Origin: Candidatus Omnitrophota bacterium
Lineage (GTDB): Bacteria; Omnitrophota; Gorgyraeia; Duberdicusellales; 4484-171
DNA: 64,000 bases
Assembly (NCBI GenBank): GCA_037146775.1
Contig: JBAWWL010000002.1
Coordinates: 21,935-85,934, forward strand
Direction: 5' to 3'
The position numbers and the translations under genes were made by a program. The notes under the pieces are model-generated. The model did not search any database, was not told where the DNA came from, and was given only the letters and a program-made list of their open reading frames with translations. Of the stretch, positions 30,034-56,056 are shown one piece after another; the stretch's first letter is position 1, and each line of letters begins with the position of its first letter.

Positions 30034-30040
30034 ACCTAAT

Positions 30041-31944: not shown

Positions 31945-32149
31945 TCGTATTATCGATTTCATTGAACCGTTCCGATTGTTTTTTGACGCAAGGTTATCAT
32001 ATGTTTGTTGCGTAGGCGGCGTAACCATAAAACGTAACCCCGGCATGATCTCCCTATATAGTTGGCAATCAGGTTTGTAGTGTGTCGGGAGAGCTATGGT
32101 TGCAGGAATAAGTTAGAGGTGTTGACGATTAAAGAATAAGCAACATATT

Positions 32150-33856: not shown

Positions 33857-33932
33857 AAACAAGCAGCGGAATTTTGTTCGGGGGCGTTGGATTATTGCGT
33901 TGATTATAATACGAAAGTGCGTATAAAACGAT

Positions 33933-35171
33933 ATGCCGAAATATAATTATATCGCGAAAACAAAAGATGCCAAGACCATACGGGATGTGGAGACAGCGAT
34001 GTCGAAGGAAGAGATTATTTCCCGTTTGCGCGTCCGTGGCCTTTTCATTGTTTCCATTACTGAAGTTCGCGAGCAGCAAGAAGCATCCTTCCTGACGTTT
34101 TTTTCCAGCCGGAGGAAAGGGAAACGAAATTCCGTAAAACTATATGATTTAGCGTTTCTTGCTCGTAATCTTGCCACCACGCTTTCCAGCGGCGTAACCC
34201 TTCTGCATAGCCTCGAAGTTATTTCGGCTGAGACAGAAAGTGCACGTTTGAGCAAAGTGCTGAAAGAATGCGCCGACCATATCAAATCAGGCTTATCGTT
34301 TCGGGAAGCTATCGCAAAATACCCGGCATTTTTCTCGCCCTTGTGGAGAGCGGTTATTGAGGTTGGAGAATCTTCGGGTAATCTTCCCTTTGTGCTGGAT
34401 AAATTAGCCGACCATTTGGACATGAGAATGGACTTTGAACGAAGAATAAAAAGTGCACTTATTTACCCCGTTATCTTGATGATGGCTGCGTTGATTGCTG
34501 TCTTTATCTTCTTCAAATTCATTTTACCTAACTTTGCAACGATATTTAAAGATTTTGATATCAAGCTGCCCGCGCCAACGCAATTTCTTTTCGCGGTAAG
34601 CGAGTTCGTTAATAACAATTTTCTGTTAGTTGTGGGAGTTGCGGCGCTTTGTATCGTTGGTATGTATCTTTTTATTACGCGGCCGGAAACAAAAGAGGTC
34701 CGCGACCGTATCAGTTTTAAATTACCGCTTGTAGGGGAGATGTTTTTCCTTTTCTCGTTAGACCGTTTCACCTCTACTATGCATATTCTCCTGGAGAGCG
34801 GCCTTCCTTTGGTATACGCGCTGGAAATTTCCGCCAGAGGCATTGGAAACTCACAACTTGAAAAAAATGTGTTGTTTGTAAAGGATAGGGTTAAGGATGG
34901 AGCTGCGTTATCGCGGGAATTCAATAAACTCAATCTCTTTCCGGCCTTAATTTCTGAAATGGCAAAAATTGGTGAAGAAACAGGTAGTATGCCGGAGATT
35001 TTTAAAAAAATTTCCGCTCATTATAGTAAAGAATTATCCACGCGCATCGAGCGCCTAGTGGTTGCTTTTGAACCGATAATGATTCTGGTGATCGGAGTTG
35101 TCATTGGTGGTATTGTTATTTCTTTGTTTCTCCCGCTCTTTAAGATCTCTACTTTGGGAACAGGGGGGTGA
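33933..35171 (+). CDS. pilC: Type IV pilus inner-membrane platform protein PilC / GspF family
   Basis: Two GspF repeats, multiple TM helices, 412 aa. Confidence 0.85.
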   Translation: MPKYNYIAKTKDAKTIRDVETAMSKEEIISRLRVRGLFIVSITEVREQQEASFLTFFSSRRKGKRNSVKLYDLAFLARNLATTLSSGVTLLHSLEVISAETESARLSKVLKECADHIKSGLSFREAIAKYPAFFSPLWRAVIEVGESSGNLPFVLDKLADHLDMRMDFERRIKSALIYPVILMMAALIAVFIFFKFILPNFATIFKDFDIKLPAPTQFLFAVSEFVNNNFLLVVGVAALCIVGMYLFITRPETKEVRDRISFKLPLVGEMFFLFSLDRFTSTMHILLESGLPLVYALEISARGIGNSQLEKNVLFVKDRVKDGAALSREFNKLNLFPALISEMAKIGEETGSMPEIFKKISAHYSKELSTRIERLVVAFEPIMILVIGVVIGGIVISLFLPLFKISTLGTGG

Positions 35172-35180
35172 TGAAAAAAT

Positions 35181-35210
35181 TTGACAGAGTGCCTAAAAAT
35201 ATGGTATAAA
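35181..35210 (+). promoter_or_regulatory. Sigma70-like promoter TTGACA-18-TGgTATAAA upstream of the major pilin gene
   Basis: Consensus -35, extended -10 TGGTATAAA, then AGGAGG RBS before the pilin ATG. Confidence 0.55.
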
Positions 35211-35263
35211 TATGTAAGTTGGGTGTTTTTATGGTTCGTAACCGAAAAAGGAGGTGCAGTGTT

Positions 35264-35710
35264 ATGAGAAAGGGTTTTACACTTATGGAATTGATCGTGG
35301 TGGTTATCATTATAGGCATACTTGCCATGATCGGTTTACCGCAGTTTTTCAAAGTTGCCGAAAGAGGAAGAGCAGCAGAAGCCTTTACTGCTCTAGGTGC
35401 TTTAAGGAATGCGCAGTTACGTTATGCTGCTGAAAATTCCGAAGGCAAAACCTTGTCAGGTACTGATTTTACGCAATTAGACGTACAGTTGCCGGCAACC
35501 GGAAAATTTTTCACATATGAATTGTTTGAGACAATTCCGGCTACCCCAGGCAATGCAGGCGAAGTTATTGTGCAGTCAACCCGCAGTTCCGACACTGGTT
35601 TTGGTGCCTATGTGCTTTCTATCGCGGTTGATGGAACTATAGGGTGTTCCGGCGATAACAACGGTATGTGTGATATATTAACGCGTTCGGTGAAAACCAC
35701 AACACCATAA
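35264..35710 (+). CDS. pilA: Type IV major pilin (prepilin-type N-terminal cleavage/methylation domain)
   Basis: MRKG|FTLMELIVVVIIIGILA class III signal with G-1/E+5; C-terminal Cys pair (CSGDNNGMC); own promoter and strong RBS. Confidence 0.8.
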   Translation: MRKGFTLMELIVVVIIIGILAMIGLPQFFKVAERGRAAEAFTALGALRNAQLRYAAENSEGKTLSGTDFTQLDVQLPATGKFFTYELFETIPATPGNAGEVIVQSTRSSDTGFGAYVLSIAVDGTIGCSGDNNGMCDILTRSVKTTTP

Positions 35711-35730
35711 CCGAAAATTCTGATATTTAC

Positions 35731-35777
35731 TTGATCAGCCCGCTGTGCGTTTTGTAAAAAAGCTTGGCGGGCTGATC
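35731..35777 (+). terminator. Large inverted repeat immediately downstream of the pilin gene (possible attenuator/terminator)
   Basis: 12-bp perfect arms TGATCAGCCCGC / GCGGGCTGATCA around a 23-nt loop, followed by GGTTTTA. Confidence 0.4.
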
Positions 35778-35834
35778 AAGGTTTTACACTCCTCCCAAGT
35801 AAAAACGGGCCTTATTAACTGCTAAAAAACCATT

Positions 35835-36257
35835 ATGATGAAATATAAACAACAAAATGCAATGACTTTAATGGAAATCCTGATAGTGCTTATAATTGCC
35901 AGCATTCTTTCGACGGTAGGCGTTATAAGCTACCGGCGTAGTTTGGTGAATGCGTGGGAACGAGATGCTCGAGCGATGTTGAAATTAATAAAGAATGCGG
36001 AAGCGGTTTACATGTCCGAAATGAATACGTATATTGGCTGTAATGATAATGATGAATGCAGCGCTGATTTACGTTTACATTTACCTGCGGCCGGAGGGAT
36101 ATGGTCTTATTCGGTTAACTTGCGTGGTACCGAAAGTTTTTGTGCGCAGGCAATCCCTGCGGATGCATATGCTGACCTGCACACTATGTCTATTGTTGGC
36201 CACCGCTCTGACCCGGGCCAGGATATGGAAGAGCCAGTACATGCTGGTTGCAACTAA
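35835..36257 (+). CDS. Minor pilin / pseudopilin (prepilin-type N-terminal domain)
   Basis: QNA|MTLMEILIVLIIASIL class III signal with Ala at -1 and E+5. Confidence 0.65.
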   Translation: MMKYKQQNAMTLMEILIVLIIASILSTVGVISYRRSLVNAWERDARAMLKLIKNAEAVYMSEMNTYIGCNDNDECSADLRLHLPAAGGIWSYSVNLRGTESFCAQAIPADAYADLHTMSIVGHRSDPGQDMEEPVHAGCN

Positions 36258-43441: not shown

Positions 43442-43529
43442 CGGAGGAGAGAGGATTTGAACCTCTGAGGGACACAAGGCCCCCACTGGTTTTCGAGACC
43501 AGCGCATTCAACCACTCTGCCACTCCTCC
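43442..43529 (-). tRNA. tRNA-Ser (anticodon CGA)
   Basis: Manual fold: acceptor GGAGGAG/CTCCTCC, 3-bp D stem, anticodon loop CUCGAAA, long variable arm, T-loop TTCAAAT; 88 nt. Confidence 0.85.
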
Positions 43530-43632
43530 AGGTGAAATTTTACGCAAAACGTAAAAGCCCAACGGTTTTTCCGCCAAAATTTGTTCTACAAATTTTGGCG
43601 AGACCTCGCCTAAATAATTATTAATACGGCGG

Positions 43633-43670
43633 GCGAGACCAGCGCATTCAACCACTCTGCCACTCCTCCA
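43633..43670. repeat. 38-bp exact direct copy of the 5' half of tRNA-Ser (acceptor through anticodon stem)
   Basis: CGAGACCAGCGCATTCAACCACTCTGCCACTCCTCCA identical to 43493-43530. Confidence 0.85.
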
Positions 43671-44140: not shown

Positions 44141-44387
44141 AAAAGTGCGCGGGGGGGGACTTGAAACAAATCTCGCCGGAGGCGAGCTTCTTAGTATTTG
44201 TTCCAAGACCACTCTCGCATAAAATAAACTATAGTTGGCGCGCAAAACTTTTAGAACAAGCAAAAGTGCGCGGGGGGGGACTTGAAACAAATCTCGCCGG
44301 AGGCGAGCTTCTTAGTATTTGTTCCAAGACCACTCTCGCATAAAATAAACTATAGTTGGCGCGCAAAACTTTTAGAACAAGCAAAAG
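44141..44387. repeat. Two 121-bp tandem units plus a partial third copy, each beginning with the last 25 nt of tRNA-Leu (T-loop through discriminator + CTTTT)
   Basis: AAAAGTGCGCGGGGGGGGACTTGAA at 44141, 44262 and 44383 (the last is the tRNA itself); the intervening 96 bp are identical and contain the hairpin CTCGCCGGAGGCGAG. Confidence 0.9.
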
Positions 44388-44469
44388 TGCGCGGGGGGGG
44401 ACTTGAACCCCCATGGAATTACCCATACGCTTCTGAGACGTATGCGTCTGCCAATTTCGCCACCCGCGC
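44388..44469 (-). tRNA. tRNA-Leu (anticodon CAG)
   Basis: Manual fold: acceptor GCGCGGG/CCCGCGC, 3-bp D stem, anticodon loop CUCAGAA, 13-nt variable arm, T-arm GGGGG-TTCAAGT-CCCCC; 82 nt. Confidence 0.8.
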
Positions 44470-47135: not shown

Positions 47136-47888
47136 ATGAGAAAATATACTAATATAGTTTTATTGTTGGCAGGTGCTGTTTTGTTTGTGGGTATTGCCAG
47201 TAATTTCTGTTTTGCACAAACAGAAAATGCCGACACCGGTATGACGGCGCAGCCTTCGGTAGGCGCTCCTATACAAAAATGGCTGCAAAAAAAAGGTTTA
47301 AGCCCCAACGTTTTTTTTCGCGATGATTATAGCTTTTTGGACGGAGACTTTGAATTGGCCGGAGAAATAACAACAGATATTATGTCCGGAGATTTTTCCA
47401 TTGATGATCCCGAGATTCTCAAACAGGCGAAAGAGAATATCGAGAACGGTAATACGTTATTTTTTCCATGGGATAGCAAAGGAATAGCGAAGGTGGTTAC
47501 CGTAGAAGGAAATGCTATGGCAGAAGTAAAAACAGGCACGGACGGCATCGCTGCTATCAGCCAAGATATCGGCTTCAAGAACGTAAAGGCAGAGTTCACC
47601 TTCGATGTGTACCCGGTAGAGGTAAACGATGCGGATATCTTGGATGTCTTTTTGGCTGATTTTGGAATGAAAACAGACGGGGTGCCTTCTCGCGTGGCGG
47701 TTGCGAAATATAAATTATCTGAGTTGTCGTCGCCGGAGCATATTGTCATAGACTTTTCGAAAAATAAAGAAGTAAAAGATTTCTTGGAAAAAGATATAGA
47801 ACAGCGGTTTAATATCATTTGTCAAATTACCGCCAGGCGGGATGAGCCGGCTACGGTACGTTTTGATAATTTTAAGATGTCGTATTGA
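47136..47888 (+). CDS. Secreted hypothetical protein
   Basis: Signal peptide (LLLAGAVLFVGIASNFCFAQT); no recognisable domain. Confidence 0.5.
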   Translation: MRKYTNIVLLLAGAVLFVGIASNFCFAQTENADTGMTAQPSVGAPIQKWLQKKGLSPNVFFRDDYSFLDGDFELAGEITTDIMSGDFSIDDPEILKQAKENIENGNTLFFPWDSKGIAKVVTVEGNAMAEVKTGTDGIAAISQDIGFKNVKAEFTFDVYPVEVNDADILDVFLADFGMKTDGVPSRVAVAKYKLSELSSPEHIVIDFSKNKEVKDFLEKDIEQRFNIICQITARRDEPATVRFDNFKMSY

Positions 47889-47998
47889 TAGATGCCCGCA
47901 TAATGGTTGTTTTGTCTCGGGTTGACGAAAGCGTGTTAAATGCGGTATAATATAAGAGTGGTTTCGGTAATAGGCTAGATAATCAAAAAGGAGGTCGT

Positions 47999-48391
47999 AT
48001 GAGAACATACCTTTTAATTCTATTCAGTATTTTGGCAGTGTCATTTTGTGGAGTCGTTTTTGCCCAAGGAGCCGACGAAAATATTACCATAACCACTTTT
48101 TATCCATCACCGAAAGGTATTTTCAAAACTATGGAAATATTGAATGGGAACAGCCGTATCCAGATGAATAATGCTGACGGTTTTCCTAATATTGATTTTA
48201 ATAATAATGCTACTGAGACACCATATGACTACCGTATTTATCTGATAGATGACAACTATTTTGGTATCAGAGGCGGCGCCTCCCGGACAGGAAGCGCGCC
48301 AACCTATGACATTAATTCCGGTGTTCGTTTCACCGATAGAGCCGGCAACCCCAACAGAATTGAAGTAGGCGAAATCTGGATTTGCTACTAG
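47999..48391 (+). CDS. Small secreted hypothetical protein
   Basis: Signal peptide; strong upstream promoter TTGACG-18-TATAAT (47914-47943) and AAAGGAGG RBS. Confidence 0.5.
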   Translation: MRTYLLILFSILAVSFCGVVFAQGADENITITTFYPSPKGIFKTMEILNGNSRIQMNNADGFPNIDFNNNATETPYDYRIYLIDDNYFGIRGGASRTGSAPTYDINSGVRFTDRAGNPNRIEVGEIWICY

Positions 48392-48499
48392 CGGAGGTTT
48401 GACATCACGCACAAGGCTTTCAAGACAACCAATGAAGCAGCGATAGTAACGGTTGATACTGACCTATATTCCCTTCCCACCATATACGCCGCCAGTTAT

Positions 48500-48811
48500 G
48501 TGTTCTTGGATAAGGCATATATCTATTTGGACAAAGATGCTCACAGCCGAGTAGCAGTGTGGATATACCCCAAAGATAAAAGCTGCGATATCGGGCAACT
48601 TGGCATGGAGTTTTCCAACGAGTTGCTTAACTACGCCCACTATTTTACCAGCTTAAAAGCGAATGCCGGAATTATGAAGGCTTTACTGCAGCGTGCACTT
48701 TTTTCAGCCGCCCCCTCTTTAGTGAATGAGATGGGAAAACAGGAAGTCGAAAGCGTTATCGACGAGCTTGAGCAGGAAGAAAAGAAACGCATACCCAAAA
48801 AAAGTAAGTAA
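48500..48811 (+). CDS. Hypothetical protein (first gene of the radical-SAM operon; GTG start)
   Basis: 103-aa ORF whose TAA stop overlaps the next start (TAATG). Confidence 0.4.
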   Translation: MFLDKAYIYLDKDAHSRVAVWIYPKDKSCDIGQLGMEFSNELLNYAHYFTSLKANAGIMKALLQRALFSAAPSLVNEMGKQEVESVIDELEQEEKKRIPKKSK

Positions 48812-49032
48812 TGCACCATTTTTTGTGTACACAGGGCAGCAAACAACTGGTAAGATTGCATAAAACGCTTTATCGAAAAGAAATTTTACAGCGCGCAAAA
48901 GAATTAGAGCCCGGTACGGTTGGCGCTGTGCAGTCAGACGGACAGTATTACCTGGTAGAGTTATCCGTGGACACCGAAGAAGACTATTTTTCATTTTTAA
49001 ATTATTTGATTTACCTGGGCAGGCACCATTAA
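48811..49032 (+). CDS. Small hypothetical protein, possible PqqD-like recognition element (speculative)
   Basis: 73 aa; translationally coupled to the 48500 ORF; 15 nt before the radical-SAM gene. Confidence 0.4.
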   Translation: MHHFLCTQGSKQLVRLHKTLYRKEILQRAKELEPGTVGAVQSDGQYYLVELSVDTEEDYFSFLNYLIYLGRHH

Positions 49033-49047
49033 CGGAAGCAGAACCAG

Positions 49048-50481
49048 ATGGAAAAAACAATATCATCAAATCTGAGAGCAAAGATACGGAAAGATAAAAA
49101 TTTTACCATAATTCCTTTTAACCGGCGGCCCATTAAAGAAAGTTATTTGGTTTCTAACGTACTTGGCGGATGGGATTTCCTTAACGAGGAAGAATTCCGG
49201 GCATTTAATTCCTTCAACCTCGATAGAGACAGTTCTCTTTTTACGCGCCTTCATGAAAGGGGTTTGGTGGCTGACGAACGCAACATAGAAAGCCTCATAG
49301 AAGGTTATCGGACGCTCAACGCACATCTTTTTAGCGACACATCTTTGCATATTGCGGTAGTCACTACGCGCTGCAACCTGCAATGCACTTATTGCCAATC
49401 GAAATCGCCGCAGCGCAAAGATATGGATATCGAAGTCGCTGCGCGTGTTTTGAAATATCTCTTTGAGGTGCGCACTACTGCCGTAACCCTGGAATTACAG
49501 GGAGGCGAACCGCTGCTCAATTGGGAAACGGTTAAGTTTCTGGTAGAGCATGCCCGCAAATTTAATAAAAGCAAAAATTTACAGCTGGCACTGGTAAGCA
49601 ACTGTGTCCTTTTGGATGAAGTAAAAATGAAATTCTTAGCTGATTTTAATGTATCCTTGTGCTGTTCGCTGGACGGCCCCCGTCAGCTTCATGACGCATA
49701 TCGCCGGTTTCCTAACGGGGAAGGCAGCTATACACAGGCCGTTAAAAATATAAAGTTCTTCGAGGAAAAGTTTGGCAGAAAAGTTGGGCTTTTGCCAACC
49801 ATTACCAAACATTCTTTCGGCTATTTTAAGGAAATAGTTGATGAACACCTGCGTTGGAAGCAACCCGACATAGCTTTACGGCCGGTAAATCAAATAGGCG
49901 GCGCTTGCACCTATTGGCCGGCTTTGGGGTATTCTGCCGAAGAGTTTATCGTATTTTACAAAAATTCTATGGATTACATCCTGGAGTTGAACAAAAAAGG
50001 TATTTTTATACGCGAGAGGATGGCTGCTTTTATGCTTAAGAAAATTCTTTCTCGCGAAGACCCCGGCTTTGTCGAGCTGATGAATCCCTGTGGAGCGGGC
50101 AGGGGGCAAATAGTTTATATGCCGGATGGTAGTTGTTATCCTTGCGATGAAGCCAGGATGGTGGAGGATGAATTGTTTTGTTTGGGTAATATCCTCAAAG
50201 AAGACTACGATATACTGATGCGCAAGGATAATCTTCTCCATCTTTTGGAATCTTCAGTCATGAACCTGTGGGATTATAATTCTGCATTTTTTCCCTGGAC
50301 AGGAACGTGTCCGGTGGTAAACTATTATACACAGAAGAATTTTGTTCCTAAAATCGCCTGTTCACCGTTACATAAGGTTTATAATTTTCAGTTTCAGTAC
50401 ATTTTTGAAAAGATGCTGGAGGATAAAGATAACATGAATATATTTAAAAGATGGGTTAAAAAGGAGGTAGACCATGCCTAA
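49048..50481 (+). CDS. Radical SAM / SPASM-domain protein (peptide-modifying maturase-like)
   Basis: CNLQCTYC (CxxxCxxC) at ~residue 113 after a ~100-aa N-terminal extension; C-terminal SPASM cysteines (CGAGRGQIVYMPDGSCYPCDE...CLGN...CPVV). Confidence 0.8.
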   Translation: MEKTISSNLRAKIRKDKNFTIIPFNRRPIKESYLVSNVLGGWDFLNEEEFRAFNSFNLDRDSSLFTRLHERGLVADERNIESLIEGYRTLNAHLFSDTSLHIAVVTTRCNLQCTYCQSKSPQRKDMDIEVAARVLKYLFEVRTTAVTLELQGGEPLLNWETVKFLVEHARKFNKSKNLQLALVSNCVLLDEVKMKFLADFNVSLCCSLDGPRQLHDAYRRFPNGEGSYTQAVKNIKFFEEKFGRKVGLLPTITKHSFGYFKEIVDEHLRWKQPDIALRPVNQIGGACTYWPALGYSAEEFIVFYKNSMDYILELNKKGIFIRERMAAFMLKKILSREDPGFVELMNPCGAGRGQIVYMPDGSCYPCDEARMVEDELFCLGNILKEDYDILMRKDNLLHLLESSVMNLWDYNSAFFPWTGTCPVVNYYTQKNFVPKIACSPLHKVYNFQFQYIFEKMLEDKDNMNIFKRWVKKEVDHA

Positions 50482-50899
50482 GGAAGATAATAAGAAATTT
50501 CAACTGGTCAAGAAAACCATCAAAGATTTTATTCGCGATGAGGATGGGTTTGTTACGAAAGACAATATTTTAAAAATTGGCTTAGGTACTGTTTCTTCCG
50601 TAGGCTTGTTAAGCGCGGTATCAGCCGCATATGCCGCCCACATTTCTCTTACTCCCTGTACCTTGGTGGTAAAAACAACTTTTACCTATCATCTGAATGA
50701 GCTGGGTTATCAGGCTGGCGCTGACGGTTTGCCTGTCGACGTCGATACAGGCGTCACGCGCACTTGTTACCGGGTAAAACATTTCAATAATCCTCACGAG
50801 CATTTTAATCATGTGAATCGGAAGGTGTCTGGCTCGGGCACGGGTTGTTTAAGCGGCAAAGGCTGCGCTTCTTTTGGCTACGCCGAATGCGGATCATAA
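50474..50899 (+). CDS. Hypothetical protein with hydrophobic segment and Cys/Gly-rich C-terminal tail (candidate modified peptide)
   Basis: Overlaps the radical-SAM gene stop by 8 nt; C-terminus ...VSGSGTGCLSGKGCASFGYAECGS; 5 Cys. Confidence 0.45.
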   Translation: MPKEDNKKFQLVKKTIKDFIRDEDGFVTKDNILKIGLGTVSSVGLLSAVSAAYAAHISLTPCTLVVKTTFTYHLNELGYQAGADGLPVDVDTGVTRTCYRVKHFNNPHEHFNHVNRKVSGSGTGCLSGKGCASFGYAECGS

Positions 50900-50909
50900 C
50901 CTTATTCGC

Positions 50910-51683
50910 ATGATTAAAGTAAAAAGTTATATCATAGGGGCGTTTTTGGTTATAGTGTCTCTTTCTGCGTTTGCAGAAGATAAACCCACCATGACGCCTC
51001 TTTATGGCAGTGATATTTCTGATAAAGAGCTGGAACAGAAAATACAATTCAGTAAAGATGTGCTTAAGGGTAGTGGCTATCTAGAAACGTTTCAGCTCTA
51101 TCGCGCCATACGCGACGAAAACGTCTCTTTGTGTCCCAACGATGAATGTAAGCGCCTGGCTTCCAATATTATTCTCCTGCGTTACGGCGGCGAGAATAGA
51201 TGTAAAGATATAAAAAACAACACGTTACAGGAACTATGCGTGGCCGTCAATGCTTCCCGCTGCGAAGAACTTAAGGATTGGCGTAAAGGTTTCTGTGAAG
51301 CTACGCTTAAAAATAATCCCGATGCTCTGGTACAGTCTTCCAATAACCCGGAATTAAGTAAAATAGTCGATTTACCGTTTCTGTTTAACAAAGACACTGT
51401 TTCGGTCGGGCTGGGAATCTATTACGGGTATAAGCACTATAGCTCCCTTGCGTGCGAGCGGTATTTGAAAGACACAAAACTTCCTTTACGCTGGAAGCTG
51501 TCTTGCAAGCTGATTTTTTCTCAGGATTTTGAAAAAGATAAGGATGAGCTGCTTACCGATTTATCCCTTTTTGTTCTCTCTCGTATCGAGACAAAACCTG
51601 CTTTATGCAATCGAGTCAAGAACAATTTTGTTAAAGATGCTTGCCTTAATGCTAACGTGAAGGATTTGAGTGAAGTGTGGTAG
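50910..51683 (+). CDS. Secreted cysteine-rich hypothetical protein
   Basis: Signal peptide from the internal ATG (MIKVKSYIIGAFLVIVSLSAFA); ~12 Cys in the mature part. Confidence 0.5.
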   Translation: MIKVKSYIIGAFLVIVSLSAFAEDKPTMTPLYGSDISDKELEQKIQFSKDVLKGSGYLETFQLYRAIRDENVSLCPNDECKRLASNIILLRYGGENRCKDIKNNTLQELCVAVNASRCEELKDWRKGFCEATLKNNPDALVQSSNNPELSKIVDLPFLFNKDTVSVGLGIYYGYKHYSSLACERYLKDTKLPLRWKLSCKLIFSQDFEKDKDELLTDLSLFVLSRIETKPALCNRVKNNFVKDACLNANVKDLSEVW

Positions 51684-51722
51684 GGTTGTGCCTATCTCGA
51701 GCTTACCGTTAACCTGCCGTTT

Positions 51723-52586
51723 TTAGTATCCACCGATTATCTTCAGTATCCACCAAAGAATATTCGTATTGCTCAAATATGCTCCGATAAACATAAAAGG
51801 CGAGAAGGGGATACGCATGGGATGCTCTTCTTTTATGCTTATCACAATTCTGAGTATATAAAAGATTGCCGTGTAGATTAATGTGTTGCTGAGATATTGT
51901 AAGATGATGGGGGCAGAGAAGAATTGAGGCACGAACAAATAATGTAATAATAGCCCGGCCACAAACACTATTCCTATAACAATTTTGTTACGTTTGAGGG
52001 TGTTGATAAACCTGTAAGCTAAGGAGTAGGCGATGCCGAGAACGATAAAATTTAAAAAGACATTATCTTTCAGGGGAAAGAGCTTTACTAAAGGCTGCAC
52101 TACCCAGGATATTCCCAGTATGATCAGAAAAAGATTTATGAAATAAAAGAACGTATATACCGAGACGACTTGCTTGATAATTTTATTTTTGTTGGCTATA
52201 ATACTGTGCAATGACAGCGGTAGCAGAACGATAAAGCTGAGTAAAAACGAGTTGATAAATAAGCTGAAACAGGAAAACGGCAGTATCGGTTTATATATAT
52301 TGACAGGCAAAAGCAGGGAGTAGGTAAAGAATAGTTTTGCATCTCCGGCTTGCCACAGCCTGGCGCCGTACAGTATAAAACCTATACCTAATCCTATCAG
52401 GGGGTTGGCAACTAATGCAAGCGACAGGCGCAGTGTGCCCGTAAAGATTCCTATAAGATAGAGTAGTATGGCTAAAAGCGAGATAATACCCAAATGAATA
52501 TTTTTAATTTTCTTCTCGCGTATATCCGTAATAACGCTCAAAATCCCGGTAATGAGAATAAGTATATAGAAATAACCATTCATCAA
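51723..52586 (-). CDS. A24-family prepilin peptidase (TadV/CpaA-like, no methyltransferase domain)
   Basis: Catalytic Asp motifs ITDIREKKIKN and WQAGDAKLF in a multi-TM protein of 287 aa. Confidence 0.65.
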   Translation of the reverse strand: MMNGYFYILILITGILSVITDIREKKIKNIHLGIISLLAILLYLIGIFTGTLRLSLALVANPLIGLGIGFILYGARLWQAGDAKLFFTYSLLLPVNIYKPILPFSCFSLFINSFLLSFIVLLPLSLHSIIANKNKIIKQVVSVYTFFYFINLFLIILGISWVVQPLVKLFPLKDNVFLNFIVLGIAYSLAYRFINTLKRNKIVIGIVFVAGLLLHYLFVPQFFSAPIILQYLSNTLIYTAIFYILRIVISIKEEHPMRIPFSPFMFIGAYLSNTNILWWILKIIGGY

Positions 52587-52665: not shown

Positions 52666-53673
52666 ATGCAGCATAACCAAGATTTTAAAGTAACAAAATG
52701 CCTTAAGAGTGAAATCTCTGATGTTGCCGCTTTTTTGAAATTAATGGAAACTTCTGGAGCGAGTTTTTTACCCCAAAATGAGCAGTATCTTTTAAATAAA
52801 TATCGTAGCTATGAAAAAAATGACCGCCATTTAAGCTTATTTCTGCTTAAAAATAGTCAAGGCATTATAAAAGGCGTGAGCGGATACGTGCCTTTTAAGG
52901 GCCTTTTCCGAGGCAAGCCTTTAAATGGTTTTGTCGGGACCGATGCGATTATTTCACCCGAGGAGCGTAAAAAAATTCCTACCTTGGCAATGGTGCTGGC
53001 ACATAGTTATGAGCAGCTTGTTCGCCGGGACCGGCTCCTGCCTTTGGTCTGTCCAGCGGACAAAACTGTTTCCGAGTATTTTAAAAAAGTACGATGGGGA
53101 GAATTTTCTCACGCCTACAAGTTTTTTCATCCTCTCGCGGCGCAATTTTCACCTGTTCTCAAGAAAGGTGGTATAGAAATCAGGAAAATAGATATATTCG
53201 AAAAGGATATCGATGTATTTTTTAAACGGATAGCGCCGCAGCATGATTTTTTGCTGCATGCTGACAGAAATTTTTTGAATTGGAAATATTTTAAAAACCC
53301 ATATGGCCGCTACGTGGTATTGGCGGCTTATCAGGATAAAGACGTGGTGGGCTATTTTGTGGCGGAAAAGATTGAGAACGATATTTGCGTTGTGGATATT
53401 ACGGTAAATTTAGAATATCCACGGGTTATTCTGTTGCTTTTATTCGGTTCTCTCGATTATTTCGAAAAAAATATGGTTACGAGGATTGTGTGTTGTCTTA
53501 GTCATGGCCGCTATATGGAGATATTAAGAAAAGTAGGTTTCTTGAACTGCTGGGACACGGAATTTCTTTTTTTTAAGGTAGGGCTTCTTTTCAGCAGTAT
53601 TTCTCAGGACGATTTTTATTCCACAAACAAAAAGTGTTATCATCTGAATGGTTTTGCGCAACATCTATATTGA
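52666..53673 (+). CDS. Hypothetical protein, possibly GNAT-fold/FemAB-like acyltransferase (Acetyltransf_6-like)
   Basis: 335 aa; weak resemblance only; heads a cluster with KS-like, ACP and KS genes. Confidence 0.3.
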   Translation: MQHNQDFKVTKCLKSEISDVAAFLKLMETSGASFLPQNEQYLLNKYRSYEKNDRHLSLFLLKNSQGIIKGVSGYVPFKGLFRGKPLNGFVGTDAIISPEERKKIPTLAMVLAHSYEQLVRRDRLLPLVCPADKTVSEYFKKVRWGEFSHAYKFFHPLAAQFSPVLKKGGIEIRKIDIFEKDIDVFFKRIAPQHDFLLHADRNFLNWKYFKNPYGRYVVLAAYQDKDVVGYFVAEKIENDICVVDITVNLEYPRVILLLLFGSLDYFEKNMVTRIVCCLSHGRYMEILRKVGFLNCWDTEFLFFKVGLLFSSISQDDFYSTNKKCYHLNGFAQHLY

Positions 53674-53682
53674 GGCCGGGCA

Positions 53683-54555
53683 ATGGGTGAAGTTATTAGC
53701 GGTATACACATAAATAGAGATCCGGACACGCTGGAACTTGAAGGGGTCCGCCGTTCGGTAGCGGCTGCCTTAAAAGAAAGCGGTACCGTAATTACCAAGG
53801 ATAATTGTTACCGTGTGGGGATTTTCCTCGGTACCACATTCAGCAATTTCAAAATAAGGAATATAAACGCTGAAACATATTTTGCTAAAGGCGTGCGTGC
53901 GGTAAATCCCGCTGATTTCCCAAAGGGTTTGATTTCTTATCTGGCGGGTAACATTTCCATTGCTTTCAATATTCGCGGCGCAAACAGTACTATTTCAAGC
54001 GGCAGAGCGTCCGGTATAGATGCGTTACTGGAGGCTATGTATTTTTTGCGCCGAGATAAAAACAATAGTGCGGTAGTTGTGGAATTCAAAGAAACGCTTG
54101 ATAAAAAATCAGTATACCCCATACTGGCCAATGTTTCTTTGGTGATACGTAACTGTTCTTCCGCGAGCCAAAAAAAAGATAATGTCGAGGTGTGTGGGCT
54201 GGGGTATGCTTTTGAGAGAGCAGGTGCCACTTGCGGCCTCATACATGCGGTAGAGGAAGCGCTCGCGTTCAGCCCTGTTGACCGCAAAGATCTTAGCGGT
54301 ATTTTTTTTAGCGGTATGTCTATGCGCCAAAAGCAAACAGTACAGCGGCAACTAAACGAGCGTTTCGGATATTCCGGCAAGCATATTGAGGCTGTTTCTC
54401 TTGCCGACGCAACCGGATTGTTCGGTATTGGCGATATGATAATAAGAAAACGTTCCGTATTGTGCAGAAAGAAAATGTCTGTTACAATGTTTCTTAATTT
54501 AGGCGAAAATACTAACAGTAGCTGTGTGATGCTTAAAATAAACGGTCGAAGCTGA
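53683..54555 (+). CDS. Beta-ketoacyl synthase-like protein lacking the active-site cysteine (CLF-like)
   Basis: Thiolase-fold segments (GIFLGTTFSNF; NIRGANSTISSGRASGIDALLEA); position of the KS Cys occupied by Ser/Gly; 290 aa. Confidence 0.5.
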   Translation: MGEVISGIHINRDPDTLELEGVRRSVAAALKESGTVITKDNCYRVGIFLGTTFSNFKIRNINAETYFAKGVRAVNPADFPKGLISYLAGNISIAFNIRGANSTISSGRASGIDALLEAMYFLRRDKNNSAVVVEFKETLDKKSVYPILANVSLVIRNCSSASQKKDNVEVCGLGYAFERAGATCGLIHAVEEALAFSPVDRKDLSGIFFSGMSMRQKQTVQRQLNERFGYSGKHIEAVSLADATGLFGIGDMIIRKRSVLCRKKMSVTMFLNLGENTNSSCVMLKINGRS

Positions 54556-54582
54556 CACAAGAGGGCGGAGGAGAGGCATATT

Positions 54583-54894
54583 ATGAAAAAGAAAACCATC
54601 AAAGGAAAGAGCAAGAAGCAGCAGAAAGCTAAAACAGTATTGAGCGAAGAACAAATACGCCAGCAGTTGTTGGAAATTATAAGCAATTTAGGCAAGATTT
54701 CCAAGGAAATAATTGAGAAATCAAATAAAGAAAATTTTTCTCAGTTGGGATTAGATTCCTTTGCTCTGGTAGAAATAGTTTTTTCCATCGAAAACACATT
54801 TGATATCGATATCCCGCAAGACAGTCTTACCAGCCTTCGCACTTTCGATGATGTGCTGCATTTGGTAACTGATTTAGTGAAAAAACGTGGCTGA
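54583..54894 (+). CDS. Acyl carrier protein
   Basis: LGLDSFALVEIV phosphopantetheine-attachment Ser motif; strong GGAGGAGAGG RBS. Confidence 0.7.
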   Translation: MKKKTIKGKSKKQQKAKTVLSEEQIRQQLLEIISNLGKISKEIIEKSNKENFSQLGLDSFALVEIVFSIENTFDIDIPQDSLTSLRTFDDVLHLVTDLVKKRG

Positions 54895-56056
54895 GCGCGT
54901 AGTTATTACCGGTTTAGGTGTTGTATCTTCGCTTGGGTTCGGCCTTGATGAATTCTGGTCAGGACTAACCAGCGGTACCTCGGGTATCAGCGAAGTTACC
55001 TCTTTTAAAGCCACACACTTAGAACGGCACCGCGGAGGTGAAATAAAAGATTTTGATCCTTCGCGGCTTTTTCCTCTCGCAGCCATCCATAAACTTCCCC
55101 GTACACATCAATTTGCTCTTGTCGCGGCATATCAGGCTTTGCAAGACTCCGGAGTGAGTAAAACAAAAAATGTAGGCATGGTATTTGGCAGTATAGTCGC
55201 TGGGTCGGAATTTATTGACGGTTGCTGCAAGGATATTAATCAATACCCGGTATACATGGCGGCATCTAATATATGCACTTTATTAGGTTTAAGCGCATCG
55301 GCTTTTACGTTGTCGGGTGCTTGTGCTGCCGGAAATTACGCCATAAGTTTGGCATATGAGCGTATTAAAGAGGGCAGAGAGGCTGTTATCCTGGCCGGAT
55401 CGGCAGATTATTTTTCACCCGGAACTTTTATAGGGCTTTATCGGGTATTTTCTCTTGCTCCGCTATGCTGTCAGCCGTTTGATAAAAACCGTAGGGGCCT
55501 CATACCTGCTGAAGGCGCGGGTATGTTGGTTTTGGAAAGCCTTTCATCTGCGAAAAAAAGAAAGGCGCACATCTATGCTGAGGTTCTCGGATATGGCCTG
55601 AGTGCCGACGCTCATCACGCGCTTATACCTTCCGGCGACGGGGTTTTCCATTGCATGAAAAACGCGCTCGACCAGACAAAATTAGCGTTAAGCGATATTG
55701 ATTATATTAACGCGCATGGCACCGGTACCGTGCCTAACGATCGTACCGAATGCGCTGCGATAAAGAAATTGTTCGGGCAAAAGCGTTCCCGTAAAATACC
55801 CGTCAGCTCGATCAAGTCTGTGTTGGGTCATACGATGGCTGCGGCTTCCGCTATCGAGGCTATTGCCTGCTGCTTAACGCTCAAAACCGGCGTTATTGCA
55901 CCGACCATAAACTATGAAACGCCAGACCCGGAATGCGATATTGACTGTGTGCCGAATAAAGCACGTCGACAAAAGGTAAGGGTGGTGTTGAATAATGCGT
56001 TTGGTTTTGGGGGGATGAATTGTTCGGTGGCATTAGCTCGTAACGCCTCTTTGTGA
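54887..56056 (+). CDS. Beta-ketoacyl-ACP synthase (FabF/KAS II-like)
   Basis: Active-site Cys (SGACAAG), His motifs (NAHGTGT, GHTMAAAS); overlaps the ACP stop. Confidence 0.8.
   Translation: MAERVVITGLGVVSSLGFGLDEFWSGLTSGTSGISEVTSFKATHLERHRGGEIKDFDPSRLFPLAAIHKLPRTHQFALVAAYQALQDSGVSKTKNVGMVFGSIVAGSEFIDGCCKDINQYPVYMAASNICTLLGLSASAFTLSGACAAGNYAISLAYERIKEGREAVILAGSADYFSPGTFIGLYRVFSLAPLCCQPFDKNRRGLIPAEGAGMLVLESLSSAKKRKAHIYAEVLGYGLSADAHHALIPSGDGVFHCMKNALDQTKLALSDIDYINAHGTGTVPNDRTECAAIKKLFGQKRSRKIPVSSIKSVLGHTMAAASAIEAIACCLTLKTGVIAPTINYETPDPECDIDCVPNKARRQKVRVVLNNAFGFGGMNCSVALARNASL

What the first reader, a model, noticed from the sequence alone, without database searches (positions are those of the whole stretch)
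48500..51683. Radical SAM/SPASM operon with coupled small ORFs and a Cys/Gly-tailed downstream protein: candidate peptide-modification (RiPP-like) system
Seen in sequence: five co-directional, translationally coupled genes. The 103-aa and 73-aa ORFs overlap as TAATG. The 477-aa protein carries CNLQCTYC (CxxxCxxC) only at ~residue 113, after a ~100-aa N-terminal extension, and has a C-terminal SPASM-type cysteine constellation. The next ORF overlaps its stop by 8 nt and ends ...VSGSGTGCLSGKGCASFGYAECGS. A 12-Cys secreted protein follows.

Established knowledge: radical-SAM/SPASM enzymes with an N-terminal extension (a recognition element, as in AlbA-type sactisynthases and ranthipeptide maturases) usually install thioether or other crosslinks on Cys- or Gly-rich precursor peptides encoded beside them.

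Inference: either the 141-aa protein or one of the upstream small ORFs is the substrate. The 73-aa ORF could be a PqqD-like recognition element. Nothing here resembles a characterised precursor family, so this could be an undescribed modified peptide or protein.
Basis: partly seen in the sequence, partly recalled or inferred. Interest (0 to 1): 0.75.

Follow-up and report, generated by a model that had tools for sequence, protein, structure and literature searches.

The report
HxsC-less His-Xaa-Ser maturation operon, Omnitrophota type
The operon is a divergent member of the known His-Xaa-Ser (Hxs) radical-SAM protein-maturation system from a Candidatus Omnitrophota genome; its substrate carries a prepilin-like leader and always sits near a prepilin-type peptidase, a link not found in the papers searched.

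Summary
The ORFs are real and tightly coupled, with small corrections. The first ORF really starts upstream and is about 135 aa. The last protein has 10 Cys, not 12, and starts at ATG 50910.

The 477-aa enzyme passes NCBIfam's curated HxsB model, and NCBI already names it HxsB in this MAG. Its AlphaFold model has an N-terminal RRE-like domain and best matches the sactisynthase CteB. The two upstream ORFs are an HxsD homologue and a small companion protein, not precursors.

The 141-aa protein is an atypical, long HxsA3-like substrate. Its conserved parts are a leader (F-x-x-D-E-x-G-F-V-x-K-[D/E]), a hydrophobic segment and His-x-Asn/Ser motifs. The Cys/Gly tail occurs only in a few close relatives.

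No HxsC is present, although some related loci keep an HxsC-like gene. Across about 90 related loci the core is HxsD–HxsB–HxsA3-like. A Peptidase_A24 homologue lies within 7 kb in 26 of 27 loci with enough flank. One clade puts the cassette in an operon with two PilB-like ATPases and a PilC-like platform protein.

Verdict: a new variant of a known kind. The chemistry and the biological role remain untested.

The parts
47999..48391 (+). 130-aa secreted protein ('S130', ITITTFYPSPKG motif). Possible first gene of the operon. Function unknown.
   Evidence: Its stop codon lies 12 nt before the inferred HxsD start. The best promoter-like match in the region, 11 of 12 positions, is at 47922-47951, but the scan overall shows no enrichment. 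Homologues precede HxsD in about 20 related loci. NCBI annotates it as hypothetical protein WCI77_01685.
48404..48811 (+). HxsD homologue, 135 aa if it starts at ATC 48404.
   Evidence: The frame is open from 48392, and GGAGG lies 6 nt upstream of the ATC. Homology to relatives' HxsD extends upstream of the GTG. NCBIfam TIGR03976 HxsD scores 32.3 bits (cut-off 50) over profile positions 1-86 of 90. Relatives carry precomputed Pfam PF27806 HxsD hits. The family HMM scores 227.7 bits.
48811..49032 (+). 73-aa companion protein, tentatively HxsD-related.
   Evidence: Its start overlaps the HxsD stop as TAATG. NCBIfam HxsD_rel NF038315 gives E 0.011, 15.9 bits, against a cut-off of 41. hhalign against the HxsD N-terminus gives only 32.5% probability. 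It is present in 29 of 50 related loci. No PqqD match was found. The AlphaFold single-sequence model has pLDDT 56 and is not usable.
49048..50481 (+). HxsB: a radical-SAM maturase with an N-terminal RRE-like domain (about residues 24-90), CxxxCxxC at 109-116 and a SPASM-like C-terminal half.
   Evidence: NCBIfam TIGR03978 gives 378.3 bits against a cut-off of 370, E 5e-113. NCBI names the identical protein HxsB. The AlphaFold model has pLDDT 85.4 with strands 24-29, 32-37, 42-45 and helices 47-54, 63-70, 80-90. The top Foldseek hit is CteB 5wgg over 465 columns, E 5e-21, followed by anSME.
50474..50899 (+). HxsA3-like substrate protein, 141 aa. It has a K-rich leader with FIRDEDG|FVTKDN (residues 19-31), a hydrophobic segment to AYA|AH (about residue 55), His motifs HIS56, HLN73, HFN103, HEH108, HFN110 and HVN113, and a lineage-specific Cys/Gly tail (residues 118-141).
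   Evidence: It overlaps the HxsB stop by 8 nt. NCBIfam HxsA3 NF038309 scores 26.8 bits on residues 9-58, against a cut-off of 65. All 33 tested relatives match HxsA3. Motif statistics cover 191 members. A homologue lies downstream of HxsB in 56 of 59 loci.
50910..51683 (+). 257-aa secreted protein with 10 Cys. A conserved follower of the substrate gene. Function unknown.
   Evidence: The signal-peptide-like N-terminus and conserved Cys columns are seen, and the Cys count. It is present in 26 of 43 loci with at least 2 kb of downstream sequence. It is remotely homologous to the Cys-rich 257-aa protein that follows the substrate gene in the PilB/PilC clade (hhalign 90.8%, E 1.2e-6). It has no Pfam or NCBIfam match.
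51723..52583 (-). Peptidase_A24 (prepilin-peptidase family) membrane protein, 286 aa from ATG 52583. It lacks a PilD-type N-terminal domain. Candidate leader peptidase for the HxsA3-like protein.
   Evidence: Pfam PF01478 scores 19.5 bits (cut-off 26.5) on residues 8-118. In total 29 of 31 family members hit PF01478, best E 4.5e-11, and 3 hit Arc_PepC. D20 and G80-D81-x-K-L-F are invariant in 31 sequences. A family member is present in 26 of 27 HxsB loci with at least 5 kb of downstream sequence, across 21 HxsB clusters at 70% identity.

Best explanation
The region encodes an Omnitrophota-type, HxsC-less variant of the His-Xaa-Ser (Hxs) radical-SAM protein-maturation system.

Shown by sequence, predicted-fold and co-occurrence evidence:
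- The gene set is HxsD, a 73-aa companion, HxsB, an HxsA3-like substrate and a Cys-rich secreted protein, all co-directional and tightly coupled.
- An A24 aspartic peptidase gene lies convergent, just downstream.
- The AlphaFold model of HxsB has the RRE / radical-SAM / SPASM-like architecture.
- The conserved parts of the substrate are the N-terminal leader, a hydrophobic segment and the His-x-Ser/Asn motifs.

Inferred mechanism:
1. In the cytoplasm, HxsB binds the conserved leader of the 141-aa protein through its RRE-like domain, with HxsD and perhaps the 73-aa protein as adaptor or chaperone. In E. coli, HxsD binds an Hxs rSAM enzyme.
2. HxsB installs a radical-mediated covalent modification in the His-motif region (H103-N115). 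This is by analogy with the +8 Da change mapped to the last HxS repeat of E. coli HxsA.
3. The protein is then inserted into or exported across the inner membrane by its hydrophobic segment.
4. The leader is removed, most plausibly by the neighbouring A24 peptidase at DEDG25|F26, a class-III-signal-like site. Signal peptidase I at AYA55|A56 is the alternative, or an additional cut.
5. The product is a modified, His-rich extracytoplasmic protein.

Its role in this phylum is unknown. It may be defence, as in E. coli, or a surface or pilus-related function.
For: Family assignment:
- HxsB passes the curated cut-off, and NCBI's own name for the identical protein agrees.
- HxsD scores 32.3 bits over the full profile, and relatives reach 49.5 bits and carry Pfam PF27806.
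- The substrate N-terminus matches HxsA3, and short relatives match it end to end and show plain HxS/HxN/HxT repeats ending in HxSY.

Architecture: the AlphaFold model is RRE-like at the N-terminus and aligns to CteB over its full length.

Core conservation: HxsD is present in 49 of 50 loci and the HxsA3-like gene in 56 of 59.

Leader: 191 of the 193 collected family sequences contain a [FLM]-x-x-[DE]-E-x-G leader motif. Within those 191, D and E are both 100% conserved. G is fixed by the search pattern itself. The other positions are F/Y at +1 in 88%, K at +4 in 96% and E/D at +5 in 89%.

A24 link:
- An A24 homologue is present in 26 of 27 loci, and in 13 of 13 with both flanks of at least 7 kb.
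- At least five different upstream contexts were seen, and the link spans 21 HxsB clusters at 70% identity.
- Both catalytic Asp are invariant, and 29 of 31 members hit Pfam A24.
- hhalign puts the family's DExG on the DESG cleavage motif of a Flp pilin, at 39.8% probability over 20 columns.

PilB/PilC clade: MshEN, PilB-like x2, MshEN, PilC-like, HxsD, HxsB, HxsA3-like form one tight operon. No canonical N-methyl pilin lies within the flanks.

Functional analogy: PMC13128918.
Against: - No HxsC is present in the operon, and no HxsC-like gene was found in the 64-kb window. In E. coli both HxsB and HxsC are required.
- The window's substrate has a single H-x-S (HIS56-58) and otherwise H-x-N or H-x-H, with no tandem repeats. 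It scores far below the HxsA3 cut-off, at 26.8 against 65 bits.
- Pfam gives no Flp_Fap or N_methyl hit for any of 33 family members.
- Lys at +4 and +9 is unlike true pilins.
- A good signal-peptidase-I-type A-x-A site precedes the first His in most members.
- Gracilibacteria loci have HxsD-HxsB-HxsA3-like with the same leader but no A24 gene within about 6 kb.
- The A24 gene could simply be the cell's housekeeping prepilin peptidase. A type IVa pilus cluster without a PilD gene beside it lies 12 kb upstream.
- No chemistry was tested.
Confidence: 0.6

Rival explanations
1. This is a sactipeptide- or ranthipeptide-like RiPP system in which the enzyme crosslinks the Cys/Gly-rich C-terminal tail (GCLSGKGCASFGYAECGS) of the 141-aa protein through thioether bonds.
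For: After HxsB, the best NCBIfam matches are thioether-forming maturases of Cys-containing peptides: PapB 117.8 bits, CcpM 114.6 and SCIFF 105.4. The best structural match is the sactisynthase CteB. The tail has 3 Cys and is conserved among the closest relatives. Most family members keep one Cys in the core.
Against: Those matches are far below their cut-offs of 340-500 bits, whereas HxsB passes its own. The tail is found in only 10 of 191 family members, and 149 of 184 end in HxSY instead. The canonical HxsA of Aeromonas has no Cys at all. Some family members also lack Cys. A tail-directed extra reaction in this lineage alone is not excluded.
Confidence: 0.12
2. The maturation system is the same, but the A24 peptidase is unrelated to it. 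Under this reading the A24 gene is the cell's housekeeping prepilin peptidase. The conserved N-terminus of the substrate is then an RRE-binding leader fused to an extended Sec signal peptide, and signal peptidase I cuts at AYA|A.
For: A-x-A-like sites precede the first His in most members. Canonical HxsA uses an ordinary Sec-type signal. Gracilibacteria loci lack a nearby A24 gene yet keep the DExG leader. The window has a type IVa pilus cluster without an adjacent PilD, and only one A24 gene in 64 kb. There is no Pfam pilin-motif hit.
Against: The A24 gene is within 7 kb of HxsB in 26 of 27 loci, despite at least five different flanking contexts and 21 sequence clusters. With roughly one to three A24 genes per genome of about 2 Mb (my assumption), well under one co-occurrence would be expected by chance. 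In one clade the Hxs genes are in the same operon as PilB/PilC homologues, and the HxsA3-like protein is the only pilin-like candidate there. G at -1, F/Y at +1 and E/D at +5 fit a class III signal.
Confidence: 0.3
3. A functional reading. As in E. coli HXS, the mature His-rich protein sits in the periplasm and blocks entry of phage DNA, so the locus is an antiphage defence system.
For: The locus shares HxsB, HxsD and an HxsA-class substrate with the experimentally tested system.
Against: The substrate has no peptidoglycan-binding domain and no basic HxS repeats. HxsC is absent. The locus sits among housekeeping genes (smpB, inositol monophosphatase) and is conserved in relatives, rather than lying on mobile elements as in Proteobacteria, where 298 of 371 plasmid hits are on conjugative plasmids. 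In some clades it is coupled to PilB/PilC, glycosyltransferase and further rSAM genes. PADLOC 2023 has no Hxs models, so that check was uninformative.
Confidence: 0.2
4. The enzyme is an anaerobic sulfatase-maturating enzyme and the small ORFs are incidental.
For: anSME structures are strong fold matches, with TM-score about 0.8 normalised to the target. This is expected for any SPASM enzyme.
Against: TIGR03942 scores 86.6 bits against a cut-off of 349. anSME lacks the RRE-like N-terminal domain and aligns over 386 columns, against 465 for CteB. The flanking small genes are conserved with the enzyme.
Confidence: 0.01

Closest known systems
Canonical HXS system, hxsD-hxsB-hxsC-hxsA (Haft & Basu families TIGR03976-03979; E. 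coli system characterised in PMC13128918)
   Same: It shares an HxsB-family RRE/rSAM/SPASM-like enzyme that passes the curated model. It has an HxsD homologue immediately upstream. The substrate gene lies downstream and carries His-x-(Ser/Asn) motifs and an N-terminal export or processing region. The substrate is presumably matured in the cytoplasm and then exported.
   Different: There is no HxsC. An extra 73-aa protein is present. The substrate is 141 aa with a K-rich DExG leader rather than a plain Sec signal (compare). It has no peptidoglycan-binding domain, mostly H-x-N instead of tandem basic HxS repeats, and a Cys/Gly tail. A Cys-rich secreted protein and an A24 peptidase are conserved neighbours. 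The locus is chromosomal and phylum-wide in Omnitrophota, rather than mobile in Pseudomonadota.
NCBIfam HxsA3 (NF038309), HxsD_rel (NF038315) and HxsC4 (NF038332) variant Hxs families
   Same: All 33 tested Omnitrophota substrates match HxsA3, some over its whole length. The 73-aa protein weakly matches HxsD_rel. The second rSAM found in some related loci is closest to HxsC4.
   Different: Every printed match is below the curated cut-off: 49.4 bits or less against 65 for HxsA3, about 165 against 500 for HxsC4, and 16-21 against 41 for HxsD_rel. NCBI therefore labels these substrates 'hypothetical protein'. I found no published description of these variant families, or of an A24 or PilB/PilC link, in the papers searched.
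RRE-containing rSAM/SPASM RiPP maturases (CteB, SuiB, PapB, CcpM, SCIFF maturase)
   Same: The predicted domain architecture and fold are shared, as is the arrangement of a leader-bearing substrate encoded next to the enzyme.
   Different: Sequence scores are far below those families' cut-offs. The conserved substrate features are His motifs, not Cys or Lys-Trp motifs. The substrate also has a membrane-targeting hydrophobic segment.
Type IV prepilin / Flp prepilin processing by A24 peptidases (PilD, TadV/CpaA, archaeal FlaK/PibD)
   Same: The neighbouring gene is an A24 peptidase with both catalytic Asp. The substrate has a positively charged leader ending in Gly, F/Y at +1, an acidic residue at +5 and then a hydrophobic helix. 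The DExG motif aligns with the Flp DESG motif. In one clade, PilB- and PilC-like genes share the operon.
   Different: No N_methyl or Flp_Fap HMM match was found. Lys at +4 and +9 is atypical. The peptidase lacks the PilD N-terminal domain and has a long C-terminal membrane extension. In the window itself no pilus ATPase or platform gene is in the operon.

Membership tests
His-Xaa-Ser (Hxs/HXS) system | HxsB radical-SAM maturase (NCBIfam TIGR03978, cut-off 370 bits) | tested here: met
   The score is 378.3 bits, E 5.2e-113, covering residues 22-470. NCBI names the identical protein HxsB.
His-Xaa-Ser (Hxs/HXS) system | A second radical-SAM enzyme, HxsC, adjacent to HxsB | tested here: not met
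   The HxsA3-like gene overlaps the HxsB stop. The only other CxxxCxxC ORF in the 64-kb window is at 26576-27526; I did not assign it to a family. HxsC-like genes lie upstream of HxsB in L015, L017/18, L025, L029, L030, L052 and L070, scoring about 93 bits to HxsC and about 165 to HxsC4, both below cut-off. They abut HxsB in most of these loci but lie upstream of HxsD in L029. L012 keeps a 61-aa remnant.
His-Xaa-Ser (Hxs/HXS) system | Small HxsD protein (TIGR03976, LLNDYxLRE motif) upstream of HxsB | tested here: inconclusive
   The 135-aa form scores 32.3 bits against a cut-off of 50, over profile positions 1-86 of 90. The motif reads ELLNYAHYF. A relative scores 49.5 bits, and relatives carry Pfam PF27806 HxsD. 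Homology is clear, but the curated cut-off is not reached.
His-Xaa-Ser (Hxs/HXS) system | Substrate with tandem His-Xaa-Ser repeats (HxsA, A2, A3 or A4 models) | tested here: not met
   The window protein has one H-x-S (HIS56-58) plus HLN, HFN, HEH, HFN and HVN, none in tandem. HxsA3 scores 26.8 bits against a cut-off of 65, on the leader only. Relatives do have tandem HxS/HxN/HxT repeats. The His columns H73, H103 and H113 of the window protein align with theirs.
His-Xaa-Ser (Hxs/HXS) system | E. coli-type HxsA features: Sec signal peptide plus a peptidoglycan-binding domain | tested here: not met
   The 141-aa protein has no Pfam domain. Its leader differs from the canonical HxsA N-terminus.
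His-Xaa-Ser (Hxs/HXS) system | rSAM-dependent covalent modification of the last HxS repeat, N-terminal processing, and antiphage activity | not testable with these tools
   This needs expression and mass spectrometry or phage assays. It is known only for E. coli (PMC13128918).
RRE-dependent rSAM/SPASM RiPP maturases | CxxxCxxC radical-SAM cluster motif | tested here: met
   C109, C113 and C116 are invariant in 26 sequences. Pfam Radical_SAM scores 57.8 bits.
RRE-dependent rSAM/SPASM RiPP maturases | SPASM or twitch auxiliary-cluster domain | tested here: inconclusive
   Pfam SPASM scores 19.8 bits against 21.5. Seven Cys lie in the C-terminal half, but only C348 is invariant; the others are 69-88% conserved. 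The fold superposes on CteB and anSME.
RRE-dependent rSAM/SPASM RiPP maturases | N-terminal RiPP recognition element (winged helix: three strands, then three helices) | tested here: met
   The AlphaFold model has strands 24-29, 32-37, 42-45 and helices 47-54, 63-70, 80-90, with pLDDT 91-96 over residues 21-80 (89 for 81-90). The alignment to the RRE-bearing CteB spans the full length. This is a prediction only, and there is no PqqD HMM hit.
Anaerobic sulfatase-maturating enzymes | NCBIfam TIGR03942 (cut-off 349 bits) | tested here: not met
   The score is 86.6 bits.
Class III (prepilin-type) signal peptide with A24 peptidase | A24 aspartic peptidase with two catalytic Asp | tested here: met
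   D20 and D81 (in GDxKLF) are invariant in 31 sequences, and 29 of 31 hit Pfam PF01478. The window protein itself scores 19.5 bits against 26.5.
Class III (prepilin-type) signal peptide with A24 peptidase | Substrate with Gly at -1, a hydrophobic residue at +1, Glu at +5 and a hydrophobic helix, recognised by N_methyl or Flp_Fap models | tested here: inconclusive
   Motif frequencies fit: F/Y at +1 in 88% and E/D at +5 in 89% (G at -1 was required by the search pattern). hhalign to a Flp pilin gives 39.8% probability with the cleavage motifs in register. No Pfam hit was found in 33 members. The Flp sequence was recalled from memory and then checked as Flp_Fap at 78 bits.
Class III (prepilin-type) signal peptide with A24 peptidase | Assembly ATPase and platform protein encoded with the substrate | tested here: not met
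   This is not the case in the window operon. The nearest PilB/PilC homologues, at 32150-35171, belong to a separate type IVa pilus cluster. The feature is met in the clade of L031, L033, L034, L039, L076, L091 and L095.
PqqD-like stand-alone RRE (proposed for the 73-aa ORF) | PqqD or RRE sequence or fold match | tested here: inconclusive
   There is no PqqD hit at E up to 1, only weak HxsD_rel and weak hhalign to HxsD. The single-sequence AlphaFold model has pLDDT 56.5 and is not interpretable.

The most novel reading that the evidence does not exclude
HxsA3-type His-rich proteins of Omnitrophota, including this 141-aa protein, may be radical-SAM-modified, pilin-like substrates. Under this reading the conserved DExG|F-V-S-K-E leader is a class-III-type signal cut by a dedicated archaeal-style A24 peptidase. 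The modified protein is then assembled or secreted by type-IV-filament machinery, encoded in the same operon as two PilB-like ATPases and a PilC-like platform in one clade. That would be a new class of post-translationally crosslinked filament subunit or exported effector. It could also suggest an explanation for the 'non-canonical' processing and export reported for E. coli HxsA.
Probability: 0.3. Interest if true: 0.8.

Novelty: new variant of a known kind. Interest (0 to 1): 0.55.

Why it matters
The Hxs family was characterised experimentally only in 2026, and only in its four-gene proteobacterial form. The chemistry of the modification, and the route by which HxsA is processed and exported, are still open.

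This locus shows that a large, largely uncultured phylum carries a vertically conserved variant, with at least 331 substrate homologues. The variant usually lacks HxsC, has small leader-bearing substrates, and is genetically tied to a prepilin-type peptidase. In one clade it is also tied to type-IV-filament ATPase and platform genes. This gives three things:
- a simpler one-enzyme system for working out HxsB chemistry;
- a concrete, testable candidate for the leader peptidase;
- a hint that Hxs products may serve surface or filament roles in nanobacteria that live as predators or symbionts, not only phage defence.

It also shows that current curated models leave these substrates annotated as 'hypothetical protein'.

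Tried and rejected
- **PqqD/RRE identity of the 73-aa ORF.** There is no HMM hit, and the single-sequence AlphaFold model was too poor to use (pLDDT 56.5). The question is left open.
- **Pfam Flp_Fap or N_methyl on 33 substrate homologues.** No hits.
- **PDB sequence search with the substrate profile and the A24 profile.** Nothing meaningful.
- **PADLOC.** It contains no Hxs models, and even canonical Aeromonas HxsB and HxsC gave only generic viperin hits or none, so the check was uninformative.
- **Genome-contig scan with the single HxsB protein.** It returned only five distant Gracilibacteria loci at 32% identity. These were useful as an outgroup once translated with code 25.
- **Promoter and terminator scan.** No enrichment over shuffles; only one 11-of-12 promoter-like site, upstream of the 130-aa gene.
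- **Rfam.** Only tRNAs in the window.
- **Anaerobic sulfatase maturase.** Considered and rejected.
- **The upstream small ORFs as precursors.** Rejected: they are HxsD-type proteins, with no leader/core pattern and no His or Cys motifs.
- **The GTG at 48500 as the true start of the first ORF.** Rejected, because homology continues upstream.
- **The TTG at 50874 as the start of the last ORF.** Rejected, because relatives and NCBI start at the ATG.

Full report
**1. What is in the sequence**

The region 47999-52583 carries six co-directional + strand genes and one convergent - strand gene.
- The 477-aa ORF follows after 15 nt.
- The 141-aa ORF overlaps its stop by 8 nt.
- A Cys-rich ORF follows the 141-aa ORF.

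Two details need correcting. First, the frame of the first ORF is open from 48392. Its similarity to relatives continues upstream of the GTG at 48500 (VTVDTDLYSLPTIYAASYVFLDKAY). An ATC at 48404 lies 6 nt after GGAGG and gives a 135-aa protein, the size of its relatives. The NCBIfam HxsD score rises from 15.4 to 32.3 bits and then spans the whole profile. Second, the last protein has 10 Cys, and it starts at ATG 50910 as in relatives and in NCBI's annotation.

**2. Source organism**

The 141-aa and 477-aa proteins are 100% identical to proteins of a Candidatus Omnitrophota MAG. NCBI already calls the enzyme 'His-Xaa-Ser system radical SAM maturase HxsB'. It calls the 130-, 73-, 141- and 257-aa proteins 'hypothetical'.

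**3. The enzyme**

NCBIfam TIGR03978 (HxsB) scores 378.3 bits against a curated cut-off of 370. The next families score far below their cut-offs: PapB 117.8, CcpM 114.6, SCIFF maturase 105.4 and anaerobic sulfatase maturase 86.6.

An AlphaFold model built from 26 homologues has mean pLDDT 85.4. It shows a confident N-terminal domain of three strands followed by three helices (residues 24-90), the topology of a RiPP recognition element. A radical-SAM barrel and a C-terminal auxiliary-cluster region follow.

Foldseek ranks the RRE-bearing sactisynthase CteB first, at 465 aligned columns. anSME follows at 386 columns and lacks the N-terminal domain. The family is HxsB.

**4. The small upstream proteins**

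The first is an HxsD homologue. Relatives reach 49.5 bits on TIGR03976 and carry Pfam PF27806. In the window protein the family motif LLNDYxLRE reads ELLNYAHYF.

The 73-aa protein matches only HxsD_rel weakly (E 0.011). hhalign to the HxsD N-terminus gives 32.5% probability. It is present in 29 of 50 related loci.

Neither protein has the features of a precursor. No PqqD signal was found, and a single-sequence model was unusable.

**5. The substrate**

Word-based search with the 141-aa protein alone found only six relatives. Genomic context then revealed many more. In 56 of 59 related loci with enough sequence, a small gene of the same family follows HxsB directly. A profile search found 331 proteins. 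All the named ones are Omnitrophota 'hypothetical proteins', including one from Ca. Velamenicoccus archaeovorus.

A typical member is 75-100 aa and has these parts in order:
- a Lys-rich N-terminus;
- the motif [FL][IMV]K-D-E-x-G-[FY]-[VI]-[ST]-K-[ED], where D-E-x-G was found in 191 of the 193 collected sequences;
- a hydrophobic stretch ending in an A-x-A-like site;
- H-x-S, H-x-N or H-x-T repeats, usually with one Cys;
- a C-terminal H-x-S-Y, present in 149 of 184.

All 33 tested members match NCBIfam HxsA3, and a few also match HxsA, HxsA2 or HxsA4. The best E-value is 1.3e-13 and the scores printed are at most 49.4 bits, so all appear to fall below the 65-bit cut-off.

The window protein is a long, atypical member. 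It keeps the leader and the aligned His positions H73, H103 and H113. It has Asn where others have Ser (HLN, HFN, HFN, HVN). In place of HxSY it has a Cys/Gly tail. That tail occurs in only 10 of 191 members, so it cannot be the conserved target of the enzyme.

**6. What is missing and what is extra**

The canonical order is hxsD-hxsB-hxsC-hxsA (PMC13128918; Aeromonas plasmid). Here no HxsC lies between HxsB and the substrate, and none was found in the window.

Some Omnitrophota loci do carry a 312-337-aa rSAM upstream of HxsB. Its closest models are HxsC4 and HxsC, below their cut-offs. One locus retains a 61-aa remnant. HxsC therefore seems to have been lost repeatedly in this phylum.

Two extra partners are conserved.
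- **A secreted Cys-rich protein of about 260 aa follows the substrate.** It is present in 26 of 43 loci. It is remotely homologous to the protein at the same position in another clade (hhalign 90.8%).
- **A membrane protein of about 290 aa belongs to Peptidase_A24.** In total 29 of 31 members hit Pfam PF01478, and three also carry the archaeal A24 C-terminal domain. D20 and the GDxKLF Asp81 are invariant.

The A24 gene is within 0.5-7 kb of HxsB in 26 of 27 loci with at least 5 kb of downstream flank. It is present in 13 of 13 loci with both flanks of at least 7 kb. The link spans 21 HxsB clusters at 70% identity and at least five different wider contexts.

**7. The pilin-like lead**

The leader has Gly at -1, Phe/Tyr at +1 (88%), an acidic residue at +5 (89%) and a following hydrophobic helix. 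This is the pattern cut by A24 peptidases.

hhalign places DExG on the DESG cleavage motif of a Flp pilin. The alignment is short and weak, at 20 columns and 39.8% probability. The Flp sequence was recalled from memory and then verified as Flp_Fap. No Pfam pilin model hits the family.

Independent support comes from one clade (L031, L033, L034, L039, L076, L091, L095 and others). There a single tight operon reads:

MshEN, PilB-like, PilB-like, MshEN, PilC/GspF-like, coiled-coil protein, HxsD, HxsB, HxsA3-like, Cys-rich protein, GT28-like glycosyltransferase.

The A24 gene and another rSAM/SPASM gene lie convergent to it. No canonical N-methyl pilin lies within the flanks held for this clade.

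Three observations count against the link.
- Gracilibacteria loci have HxsD-HxsB-HxsA3-like and the same leader, but no A24 gene within about 6 kb.
- Most members also have a plausible signal-peptidase-I site.
- The window has an ordinary type IVa pilus cluster at 28-36 kb with no PilD gene beside it, so the A24 gene could be that system's peptidase.

**8. Most likely mechanism**

Section 6 establishes the conserved gene set. The domain architecture comes from an AlphaFold prediction (section 3). The steps below are inferred.

1. HxsB docks on the conserved leader through its RRE-like domain, with HxsD as adaptor. In E. coli, HxsD binds an Hxs rSAM enzyme.
2. HxsB modifies the His-motif region. 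This is by analogy with the +8 Da modification of the last HxS repeat in E. coli HxsA.
3. The hydrophobic segment takes the protein to or across the membrane.
4. The leader is removed, either by the A24 peptidase at G25|F26 or by signal peptidase I at A55|A56.

The biological role is unknown. The locus sits among housekeeping genes and is conserved in relatives. The proteobacterial system, by contrast, lies largely on conjugative plasmids. This argues against simply transferring the antiphage label.

**9. Comparison, novelty and score**

The system belongs to the Hxs family on the strength of HxsB (test met) and HxsD homology. It fails two family features: HxsC is absent, and the window's substrate has no tandem HxS repeats. 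It therefore 'works like' an Hxs system but is not a canonical member.

NCBIfam already holds HxsA3, HxsD_rel and HxsC4 models, so variants are known to curators. In the papers searched I found no description of this Omnitrophota form or of any A24 or PilB/PilC coupling.

I rate it a new variant of a known kind, with interest 0.55. The main identity is already annotated, but the prepilin-peptidase and type-IV-filament link is unexpected and directly testable.

Noticed in passing
window 44141-44382, next to tRNA-Leu(cag) at 44387-44469 (-); also 43494-43530 and 43634-43670: A perfect 121-nt tandem duplication (44141-44261 and 44262-44382) abuts the tRNA-Leu gene. A 37-nt exact copy of the 5' part of tRNA-Ser(cga) lies 140 nt away from that gene. 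These could be attachment-site remnants of an integrated element or an assembly artefact.
   Followed up: partly
window 28069-36257: A type IVa pilus / T2SS-like cluster. It has a PilM-like gene (28069-29544), a secretin (30400-31944), a PilB-like ATPase (32150-33856), a PilC-like platform gene (33933-35171) and two N-methyl pilins (35219-35710, 35835-36257). No prepilin peptidase gene lies beside it. The only A24 gene in the 64-kb window is the one next to the Hxs operon.
   Followed up: partly
window 52666-56056: A conserved four-gene module lies just beyond the A24 gene: a 335-aa protein with no family match, a truncated KAS-like 290-aa protein, an acyl carrier protein and a full KAS. It stays next to the Hxs genes in L006, L010, L011, L022, L023, L079 and L082, even where the order is permuted (L011). 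This suggests an acyl-transfer function possibly linked to the system.
   Followed up: partly
window 47136-47888 and 47999-48391: Two secreted proteins of unknown function, 250 aa and 130 aa, precede HxsD. The 130-aa protein carries an ITITTFYPSPKG motif and a C-terminal EIWIC motif. The 130-aa family precedes HxsD in about 20 related loci, and neither protein has a family match.
   Followed up: partly
L012 8486-9814, L020 10571-11968, L033 11603-12682, L036 9733-11169, L039 11543-12595 (all - strand): In several related clades the A24 gene is followed on its own strand by an additional rSAM/SPASM gene. That gene gives only generic PqqE-, NirJ- or tungsten-cofactor-maturase-like matches. It may be a second maturase that replaces HxsC. 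It is absent from the window.
   Followed up: partly
L095 4147-4416 and 10001-10288; L052 and L072: Some genomes carry two HxsA3-like genes near one HxsB. In L095 each is followed by its own Cys-rich protein of about 265 aa, and one copy lies next to the PilB/PilC genes.
   Followed up: partly
L001-L005 (Candidatus Gracilibacteria, genetic code 25): Distant HxsD-HxsB-HxsA3-like cassettes exist in Gracilibacteria, with HxsB at 32% identity. They keep the DExG leader (FLSDESGKITKEDVLKMG). Read with the standard code, HxsB is split by in-frame UGA codons.
   Followed up: partly
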